Assembly (NCBI RefSeq): GCF_003334335.1
Contig: NZ_QOWQ01000175.1
Reading direction: 5' to 3' (one strand)
Length of the DNA: 527 bases
From: Escherichia coli
Lineage (GTDB): Bacteria; Pseudomonadota; Gammaproteobacteria; Enterobacterales; Enterobacteriaceae
The notes beneath the pieces are model-generated. The model was not told the origin of the DNA. It saw only the letters and a list, made by a program, of their open reading frames with translations, and searched no databases. How positions within the stretch are numbered: the first letter of the stretch is position 1; each line of letters starts with the position of its first letter. This document shows positions 1-527 of the stretch, in pieces. The translations under genes and the position numbers were made by a program.

Positions 1-527
1 GAATTTATCCGTGAAGGTGTGGGCGTTCATGCGTTTAACGGCGAAATCTTTGTGCAGCCGGTCTGGGATACGGAGAGTACGCAACTGTTTCGTACGCGTT
101 TTAAAGCCGTGAGTCCGAAACGGGTGGACACGCCAGGACACGGTATCGGGAACCGTTTTCTGCGGGCCGGTGTGGAGGTTGATCGATATGGCCGTGCCGT
201 TGCGTACCATATCTGTGAGGATGATTTTCCTCGCTCCGGGAGTGGACGATGGGAACGGATCCCGCGTGAACTACCCACCGGGCGTCCGGCCATGCTGCAT
301 ATTTTCGAGCCGGTGGAGGACGGGCAGACCCGTGGAGCCAATCAGTTTTACAGCGTTATGGAACGGCTGAAGATGCTGGATTCCCTGCAGGCAACACAGC
401 TTCAGTCGGCCATAGTGAAGGCGATGTATGCAGCGACGATTGAAAGTGACCTTGATACCGAAAAGGCCTTTGAATATATCGCCGGTGCGCCGCAGGGGCA
501 GAAGGATAATCCGCTTATTAATATTCT
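1..527 (+). CDS. Phage portal protein, lambda (gpB) family; internal fragment, 5' and 3' ends both outside the window
   Basis: Seen in sequence: frame +1 is open across the whole window (175 codons, no stop), whereas the other frames give only short ORFs. By recall, the translation aligns colinearly and without gaps to the central region of bacteriophage lambda portal protein gpB. Near-identical blocks include REGV..HAFNGE.FVQ..WDT....LFRT.F..VSPKR, IPRELP.GR, and F.H.FEPVEDGQTRGAN.FYSVME..KMLD.LQ.TQLQSAIVKAMYAATIES.LDT. GC content is roughly 50-55 percent, compatible with an enterobacterial lambdoid phage. The track did not list this frame because it contains neither a start nor a stop codon in the window. 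Confidence 0.93.

What the first reader, a model, noticed from the sequence alone, without database searches (positions are those of the whole stretch)
121..255. Divergent central segment flanked by near-identical blocks (possible mosaicism within the portal gene)
Relative to lambda gpB as I recall it, the window's residues 41-85 (VDTPGHGIGNRFLRAGVEVDRYGRAVAYHICEDDFPRSGSGRWER) are largely different but exactly the same length (45 aa) as the corresponding lambda stretch. The flanks on either side are highly conserved. The last ~20 residues of the window (nt ~463-527, EKAFEYIAGAPQGQKDNPLINI) also diverge. This pattern fits a lambdoid portal variant with a lineage-specific surface-exposed region or a recombinational mosaic typical of lambdoid phages. 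Caveat: my recalled lambda sequence may be imperfect in this segment.
Basis: inference. Interest (0 to 1): 0.3.

Follow-up and report, generated by a model that had tools for sequence, protein, structure and literature searches.

The report
Fast-evolving wing patch of phage-21-type portal
The window is an ordinary piece of a phage-21-type prophage portal gene from E. coli, and the flagged 45 residues are a fast-evolving patch of the portal's wing domain rather than a recombination insert, although natural 21/lambda hybrid portals do cross over about 160 bases further downstream.

Summary
The window is frame 1 of a lambda-family portal gene (Pfam PF05136). It is 100% identical to an E. coli ATCC 11775 prophage and 95% nt / 98% aa identical to phage 21 gene 4, covering portal residues 133-307.

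Residues 173-217 (nt 121-255) match lambda gpB at 14/45 positions without gaps, against 82/108 in the window flanks (p=3e-7). The last 22 residues also diverge (23%). "Near-identical flanks" is overstated: they are 68% and 81% aa and 61% and 75% nt identical, with synonymous sites saturated.

The mosaic reading fails. Across 83 homologues the segment's identity falls smoothly with flank identity and never gains a gap. No relative of this lineage pairs like flanks with an unlike centre.

The segment lies in the wing domain (strands plus two loops). It includes the counterpart of lambda loop 208-218, which adapts to the capsid contact. The divergent tail is the start of the clip.

Best reading: old vertical divergence with weak constraint on exposed positions. 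This was already known from the phage 21/lambda comparison.

Side result: natural 21/lambda chimeric portals exist with a clean crossover in a 17-nt identical run at window nt 415-431.

The parts
1..527 (+). Internal fragment (frame 1, residues 133-307 of 530) of a phage-21-type, lambda-family portal gene
   Evidence: Open frame. 100% identical to E. coli ATCC 11775 prophage portal WP_000831818.1, which lies between gpW and the S49 protease gene. 95% nt identical to phage 21 gene 4. Pfam PF05136, E=2e-100. Lambda gpB structure 8k38, E=2.5e-214.
121..255 (+). Variable wing-domain segment (portal aa 173-217 = lambda gpB 176-220), the flagged finding
   Evidence: 31% identical to lambda against 68% and 81% in the flanks. 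Gap-free in 83 homologues. Entropy 1.56. AF2 model pLDDT 76-92, with strands 190-192, 198-205 and 215-220 and loops around 173-189 and 206-214. Lies in the lambda wing domain, residues 24-249 (PMC10721106).
217..249 (+). Counterpart (aa 205-215, EDDFPRSGSGR) of lambda gpB loop 208-218, which changes shape at the portal-capsid (gpE) contact
   Evidence: Residue offset of +3 taken from the HMMER alignment. Loop described in PMC10721106. Entropy peak of about 1.9-2.0 at aa 210-219.
343..432 (+). First stem helix (aa 247-276 = lambda 250-279), the most conserved stretch of the window
   Evidence: Domain limits from PMC10721106. Smoothed entropy 0.2-0.5. 80-87% aa identity to lambda in sliding windows.
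415..431 (+). 17-nt run (GTGAAGGCGATGTATGC) identical in the 21-type and lambda portal genes. It is the crossover interval of natural 21/lambda hybrid portals. The window itself is not recombinant here.
   Evidence: Hybrid L004 and L005 match the window allele at 321/323 informative sites up to nt 414, and match lambda at 306/308 from nt 432. L016 and L017 have the same last 21-type site. The run is one of the five longest identical runs between the two genes.
460..527 (+). Start of the variable part of the clip domain (aa 286-307; the variable region continues to aa 322 beyond the window)
   Evidence: 23% identical to lambda over aa 286-307, and 22% over aa 286-322. Entropy 1.93, the highest of any internal region. 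Lambda clip is residues 280-342, its loop 303-319 is disordered on the outer surface, and residues 320-324 bind the gpW C-arm.

Best explanation
The window encodes part of the portal protein of a phage-21-type lambdoid prophage. Nt 121-255 encode a small beta-sheet-and-loop element on the portal wing.

A few positions hold the fold: R173, P177, R187, G189, V190, G196, A198 and Y201. The other, probably exposed, positions are under much weaker purifying selection and have drifted apart in each lineage. The element includes the loop that in lambda (residues 208-218) adapts its shape to the symmetry-mismatched contact with the capsid protein.

The difference from lambda gpB therefore reflects old, vertical divergence of the whole 21-type gene, with site-to-site differences in rate. 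It is not a piece imported by recombination. The divergent end of the window is the same phenomenon in the outer loop of the clip domain.

Shown: the gene's identity, the divergence pattern, the absence of a recombination signal, and the domain assignment by homology. Inferred: exposure of the variable positions, and weak constraint as the cause.
For: - Identity and context.
- Divergence pattern against lambda: 14/45 against 82/108, p=3e-7.
- Synonymous differences are saturated in the segment and in both flanks against lambda (pS 0.75, 0.86, 0.65). The same holds against Citrobacter and Salmonella relatives. The flanks are therefore conserved by selection on the protein, not by recent shared ancestry.
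- Across 83 full-length homologues at 98% to 59% identity, the segment is always less conserved than its flanks. It declines smoothly (0.96, 0.73, 0.6, 0.3) and never has a gap. Spearman 0.69 between segment and flank identity, with no discordant pair involving this lineage.
- In the one unsaturated comparison (window allele against phage 21), dS in the segment (0.20) lies between that of its flanks (0.27 and 0.11). dN is 3-5 times higher (0.030 against 0.011 and 0.006), giving omega 0.15 against 0.04-0.06.
- In E. coli genomes the segment, both flanks and the tail are each found at about 2,950 places.
- Structure: lambda domain limits and the 208-218 capsid-contact loop come from PMC10721106. 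The AF2 model of this protein has pLDDT 76-92 over the wing and shows strands and loops in the segment. Its best solved-structure matches are the lambda portal entries 8xow, 8k38 and 8k39.
Against: - Solvent or capsid exposure of the variable positions was not computed from coordinates, because none were available to me. It rests on one sentence of a paper and a monomer model with mean pLDDT 61.
- Saturated synonymous sites cannot exclude a very old exchange of the segment between lineages.
- The omega comparison rests on only 2 amino-acid and 6 synonymous differences in the segment.
- A few pairs in other lineages are mildly discordant (P0067/P0069: flanks 86%, segment 42%). Segment-level exchange may therefore happen elsewhere in the family.
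Confidence: 0.8

Rival explanations
1. Partner-driven co-evolution. The variable wing patch (and the clip loop) are specificity determinants that diverged under selection to match lineage-specific partners: capsid protein and scaffold/protease for the wing, terminase and gpW for the clip.
For: - The partners are themselves strongly diverged between the 21 and lambda types: gpE 61%, gpC 47%, gpD 50%, gpW 50%, and the TerL C-terminal tail is clearly different.
- The lambda loop 208-218 contacts gpE, and residues 320-324 bind gpW.
- omega is raised in both variable regions, 0.15 and 0.24.
- From my own knowledge of Feiss-lab work, not checked here: lambda and 21 terminases are reported to prefer their own proheads through the gpA C-terminus and the portal.
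Against: - Natural hybrids combine the 21-type wing patch with lambda-type gpE, gpC and gpD. They also combine the lambda-type clip loop with 21-type TerL tail and gpW. All head and tail genes are intact, and the hybrids were seen on 6 and 13 contigs. If these prophages are viable, neither match is strictly required.
- omega stays well below 1.
Confidence: 0.15
2. Recombinational mosaic. Nt 121-255 were imported from another portal lineage into a lambda-like gene.
For: - Lambdoid phages are mosaic.
- Recombination within this very gene is real. There is a 21/lambda crossover at nt 415-431.
- There is also a breakpoint among 21-type alleles near gene nt 670 (window nt 274): 26 differences before it and 3 after, permutation p<0.002.
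Against: - The flanks are as saturated at synonymous sites as the segment.
- The whole gene is colinear with phage 21.
- The family shows a graded pattern.
- No copy in E. coli has the flanks without the segment.
- At population level the left flank (nt 1-120) is as variable as the segment: 907/1864 and 909/1851 records fall at 90-95% identity. There is no central island.
Confidence: 0.04
3. An overlapping feature on another frame or strand (the 66-aa +2 ORF at nt 170-370, the 104-aa minus-strand ORF at nt 27-341, or an RNA element) shapes the segment.
For: Both ORFs exist mechanically.
Against: - No Rfam match at E<=1 and no repeats.
- Synonymous sites of the portal frame change freely inside the segment, both against distant relatives (pS 0.75-0.88) and among close alleles (gene nt 531-636). 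An overlapping constraint would suppress this.
Confidence: 0.01

Closest known systems
Phage 21 gene 4 portal protein (GenBank M81255.1, OL657228.1 CPT_21_04)
   Same: 98% aa and 96% nt identical over the full 530 residues. Same length and same neighbours: 21-type TerS/TerL, gpW, a 501-aa protease/scaffold, a 115-aa decoration protein and a 342-aa capsid protein.
   Different: 62 nucleotide differences, mostly synonymous. In the segment, I181M and R210F. The window copy is a chromosomal prophage allele shared 100% by many ExPEC and APEC strains.
Lambda gpB portal protein (NP_040583; structures 8K38, 8K39, 8XOT, 8XOW)
   Same: Same family and fold, 61% identical overall. Highly conserved stem helix, tunnel region and crown. 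The flagged segment has the same length.
   Different: 31% identity in wing segment 173-217, 22% in clip 286-322 and 24% in the C-terminal tail. Synonymous sites are saturated throughout.
Laboratory lambda-21 hybrid phages (Feiss laboratory; e.g. 21hy33, with a chimeric 2/A gene, mentioned in PMC4669245)
   Same: Hybrids formed by homologous crossovers inside diverged head and packaging genes of lambda and 21. The natural hybrids found here are the same kind of product.
   Different: The natural hybrids cross over inside the portal gene, at window nt 415-431. They carry a third type of small terminase. The window itself is not a hybrid.

Membership tests
Lambda-family portal protein (Pfam PF05136, Phage_portal_2) | Significant full-length match to the family profile | tested here: met
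   PF05136, E=2.1e-100, model positions 2-354 of 354.
Lambda-family portal protein (Pfam PF05136, Phage_portal_2) | Homology and fold match to a solved lambda-type portal | tested here: met
   phmmer to 8k38_A, E=2.5e-214, over residues 5-523. Foldseek best hits are 8xow, 8k38 and 8k39 (the model has only moderate confidence).
Lambda-family portal protein (Pfam PF05136, Phage_portal_2) | Gene position between the head-tail adaptor gpW and the S49 protease/scaffold gene, downstream of terminase | tested here: met
   L002 annotation: TerS, TerL, gpW, portal, S49 peptidase, decoration protein, major capsid protein.
Lambda-family portal protein (Pfam PF05136, Phage_portal_2) | Forms a dodecameric ring at one capsid vertex | not testable with these tools
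   Inferred from homology only.
Phage-21-type head module | Near-identity to phage 21 gene 4 along the whole gene, with 21-type neighbours | tested here: met
   96% nt and 98% aa identity in all segments. TerL 100%, gpW 99%, gpC 98%, gpD 96% and gpE 94% identical to phage 21.
Recombinational mosaic segment (module swapped into a gene) | Segment and flanks differ sharply in synonymous or nucleotide divergence | tested here: not met
   Against lambda, pS is 0.75 in the segment and 0.86 and 0.65 in the flanks. Against phage 21, dS is 0.20 in the segment and 0.27 and 0.11 in the flanks.
Recombinational mosaic segment (module swapped into a gene) | Relatives exist with the same flanks but an unrelated centre, or the reverse | tested here: not met
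   None for this lineage among 3570 protein pairs. In E. coli genomes all four sub-queries hit about the same 2,944-2,973 places.
Recombinational mosaic segment (module swapped into a gene) | Paired breakpoints at the segment's borders | tested here: not met
   The breakpoints found lie elsewhere: nt 415-431 (the 21/lambda hybrids) and about nt 274 (among 21-type alleles, one-sided).

The most novel reading that the evidence does not exclude
The natural 21/lambda chimeric portals suggest that the portal behaves as two exchangeable halves joined at the first stem helix.

The N-terminal wing half, which carries the flagged variable patch, travels with terminase and gpW. The clip/crown half travels with protease, decoration and capsid genes.

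If the hybrids are viable, the flagged patch could be a determinant for the terminase/adaptor side rather than for the capsid. Alternatively, portal-partner specificity in lambdoid phages may be much looser than genetic work on lambda and 21 suggested.
Probability: 0.1. Interest if true: 0.4.

Novelty: already known. Interest (0 to 1): 0.12.

Why it matters
It matters little. The window is a common phage-21-type prophage portal allele, present in about a third of complete E. coli genomes. Its patchy divergence from lambda gpB is what two old, vertically diverged homologues look like when constraint is uneven.

The useful outcome is negative. A 'conserved - divergent - conserved' pattern at protein level is not evidence of mosaicism unless synonymous sites or close relatives agree.

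The one mildly useful by-product is the set of natural 21/lambda chimeric portals with a defined junction. They could serve as ready-made material for asking which half of a portal specifies its terminase, adaptor and capsid partners.

Tried and rejected
- **Synonymous-rate test with intermediate relatives.** Citrobacter (88% aa) and Salmonella (80% aa) were already saturated (pS 0.5-0.9). Only the phage 21 comparison was informative, and it has few sites.
- **Hybrid junction in curated collections.** No full-length near-identical hit in 5,426 complete E. coli genomes or 50,697 phage records. The hybrids are known here only from draft and Logan assemblies.
- **Other features in the window.** Rfam at E<=1 found nothing. 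The repeat search found nothing. The overlapping ORFs were rejected because synonymous sites vary freely.
- **Papers not held.** Sippy & Feiss 1992 (PMC206162) and Gu et al. 2024 on the lambda portal vertex (PMC11092355) could not be read. Yeo & Feiss 1995 is likewise only known to me from memory and from reference lists.
- **Right half of the hybrids.** An ungapped comparison failed because of an indel. The codon-aligned result is the valid one.

Full report
**What the window is.** The 527 bases are open in frame 1 from end to end. They are 100% identical to a prophage portal gene found in many E. coli chromosomes, for example ATCC 11775, S88 and APEC O1. They are also 95% identical to gene 4 (portal) of phage 21. 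In the ATCC 11775 prophage the gene (530 codons, WP_000831818.1) follows the terminase subunits and gpW. It precedes an S49 protease, a decoration protein and the major capsid protein. The window covers portal residues 133-307. The protein matches Pfam PF05136 (lambda-family portal, E=2e-100). It also matches the solved lambda portal gpB (8k38 and six other entries, E=2.5e-214). Related sequence is present in 1,862 of 5,426 complete E. coli genomes, at a median of two places per genome.

**Check of the observation.** I aligned the full protein with real lambda gpB (NC_001416) and with phage 21 gp4. Overall identity to lambda is 61%, and to phage 21 it is 98%.
- The flagged stretch, nt 121-255 (portal residues 173-217, lambda 176-220), aligns without any gap and is identical to lambda at 14 of 45 positions.
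- The window's left flank (residues 133-172) is 27/40 identical and the right flank (218-285) is 55/68. The contrast is significant: Fisher p=3.4e-7 against the flanks and 4e-5 against the rest of the protein.
- The last 22 residues of the window are 5/22 identical.
- Among all 45-residue windows of the protein, the only ones with 14 or fewer identities start at residues 173-175 and 281-287.

Two corrections are needed. The quoted peptide is shifted by one residue, because nt 121-255 encode RVDTPG...GRWE. The flanks are conserved, not near-identical: they are 61% and 75% identical to lambda at the nucleotide level.

**Is it a mosaic?** A recently imported segment should sit between flanks that are also similar at synonymous sites. 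They are not.
- Against lambda, the proportion of synonymous differences is 0.75 in the segment, 0.86 in the left flank and 0.65 in the right flank. It is 0.63-0.92 elsewhere in the gene, which is saturated everywhere. The flanks look alike only because the protein is conserved.
- Relatives at 88% (Citrobacter) and 80% (Salmonella) protein identity show the same saturation.
- The one unsaturated comparison is the window allele against phage 21. There dS in the segment (0.20) lies between that of its flanks (0.27 and 0.11). dN is three to five times higher (0.030 against 0.011 and 0.006; omega 0.15 against 0.04-0.06; few sites).
- Across 83 full-length homologues ranging from 98% to 59% identity, the segment is always the less conserved part. 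It declines smoothly and never contains a gap.
- Over 3,570 protein pairs, segment identity follows flank identity (Spearman 0.69). No pair involving the window's lineage combines like flanks with an unlike centre.
- In the E. coli genome collection the segment, the left flank, the right flank and the tail are found at 2,944, 2,973, 2,971 and 2,955 places, so they occur together.
- At population level the left flank is just as variable as the segment: 907 of 1,864 and 909 of 1,851 records fall at 90-95% identity. The right flank has only 40 of 1,861 records there. There is no central island.

The mosaic reading of nt 121-255 is therefore not supported.

**What the segment is.** The published lambda structure divides gpB into wing (24-249 and 368-452), stem (250-279 and 343-367), clip (280-342) and crown (453-511) (PMC10721106).
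- The same paper reports that wing loop 208-218 changes shape among the twelve subunits to fit the portal-capsid contact.
- It reports that loop 303-319 is disordered on the outer surface.
- It reports that residues 320-324 bind the C-terminal arm of gpW.

With the +3 offset of the alignment, the flagged segment is wholly in the wing. Its residues 205-215 (EDDFPRSGSGR, nt 217-249) are the counterpart of the capsid-contact loop. The window's divergent tail is the beginning of the clip, whose variable part runs to residue 322.

An AlphaFold model built on a 64-sequence alignment is poor overall (mean pLDDT 61) but confident over the wing (pLDDT 76-92 for residues 91-230). It shows strands at 190-192, 198-205 and 215-220, separated by loops. 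Its best solved-structure matches are the lambda portal entries.

Within the segment the invariant or nearly invariant positions are R173, P177, R187, G189, V190, G196, A198 and Y201. Variability peaks at about residues 178-185 and 208-220. The fixed length together with variable side chains fits a structured element whose exposed positions are weakly constrained.

**Most likely explanation.** This is old vertical divergence of the phage-21-type portal from the lambda type, with uneven constraint. The fold-holding residues, the stem helix and the tunnel region are kept. The outer wing patch, the outer clip loop and the C-terminal tail drift. I give this about 0.8.

A refinement is that the patches co-evolve with lineage-specific partners: capsid and scaffold for the wing, terminase and gpW for the clip. 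This is possible, since the partners are only 47-61% identical between the two types, but it is weakened by the hybrids described next.

An overlapping gene or RNA element is very unlikely. There is no Rfam hit and no repeat, and synonymous sites vary freely.

**Real recombination in this gene, elsewhere.** Five protein clusters from E. coli (P0018, P0019, P0020, P0024, P0026) are 96-100% identical to the window protein through residue 285. From residue 286 on, their identity to the window protein drops to the values lambda shows (22%, 72-73% and 24% over the three downstream regions).
- At the DNA level the hybrid in GCA_001911505.1 (L004) matches the window allele at 321 of 323 informative sites up to window nt 414. 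It matches lambda at 306 of 308 sites from nt 432. L005, from a Logan assembly of ERR1937444, has the same last 21-type and first lambda-type sites as L004.
- The crossover lies in the 17-nt run GTGAAGGCGATGTATGC (nt 415-431), inside the conserved stem helix. It is one of the five longest runs of identity between the two genes.
- A second hybrid class (L016, L017) has the same last 21-type site, but its left part is closer to phage 21 itself (99.0%) than to the window allele (94.9%).
- The hybrids carry 21-type TerL (including its C-terminal tail) and gpW. They carry lambda-type protease, decoration and capsid proteins. Their small terminase is unlike both lambda Nu1 and 21 gp1.
- Their head and tail gene sets are intact, and they were seen on 6 and 13 contigs.
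- They are absent from the complete-genome and phage collections, and their viability is unknown.

Separately, the window allele differs from an ST131 allele at 26 sites in gene nt 1-670 but only 3 sites in nt 671-1593 (permutation p<0.002). This is a one-sided, low-level exchange among 21-type alleles with a boundary near window nt 274.

**Comparison with what is known, and verdict.** The gene is a member of the lambda-family portal proteins and of the phage-21-type head module. All sequence-level membership criteria tested were met. The phage 21 head-gene sequence has been public since the early 1990s (M81255.1 among the hits). The current phage 21 record annotates this gene by its similarity to lambda B. 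The finding is a correct observation of an already known, ordinary pattern. Its 'surface region' reading is supported and its 'mosaic' reading is not. Interest is low, at 0.12. The hybrid portals are a minor curiosity worth a note.

Noticed in passing
window 415-431; L004:6811-6827, L005, L016, L017: Natural 21/lambda chimeric portal genes in E. coli draft assemblies. They are 21-type up to window nt 414 and lambda-type from nt 432, with a clean single crossover in a 17-nt identical run inside the stem helix. They pair 21-type TerL and gpW with lambda-type gpC, gpD and gpE, and all head and tail genes are intact.
   Followed up: yes
window about 234-378 (gene nt 630-774); L010, L011 versus L002: Fine-scale recombination among 21-type alleles. 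The window allele and an ST131 allele differ at 26 sites in gene nt 1-670 but at only 3 in nt 671-1593 (max chi-square 27, permutation p<0.002).
   Followed up: partly
L004:3408-3914 and L016:7408-7914: The hybrid prophages carry a 168-aa small terminase that is only 31-35% identical to both lambda Nu1 and 21 gp1. Their TerL is 92% identical to the 21 type, and the nucleotide match to the 21-type locus begins about 75 nt inside TerL. This suggests a further junction at the TerS/TerL border.
   Followed up: no
P0048 (also P0004, P0014, P0038, P0083, P0104, P0106, P0113): Database proteins in which the portal is fused to, or interrupted by, other domains (Lom/Ail-type PF06316 and PF13505, tape-measure, TerL, S49 protease). 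P0048 is 96-100% identical to the window protein through residue 322 and then diverges. These are probably frameshifts, gene-calling fusions or insertions.
   Followed up: no
L013 (E. coli E07), L015 (HH97), L014 (VL7S7): Several chromosomal copies are decayed. Two are frameshifted portal genes. One portal is truncated after about 275 codons next to a tyrosine integrase gene.
   Followed up: no
P0067 vs P0069; P0078 vs P0088 (family alignment, residues 173-217): A few pairs from other lineages are discordant: flanks 86% with segment 42%, and flanks 97% with segment 76%. Exchange of this wing segment may occur elsewhere in the family.
   Followed up: no
MW057783.1 (hit H123); P0075: Likely mislabelled records. 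A 48,361-bp 'Campylobacter phage CJLB-4' hits the query at the same identity (88.9%) as the phage lambda records and is lambda-sized. A Cedecea neteri portal homologue is named 'plasmid partitioning protein ParB'.
   Followed up: no
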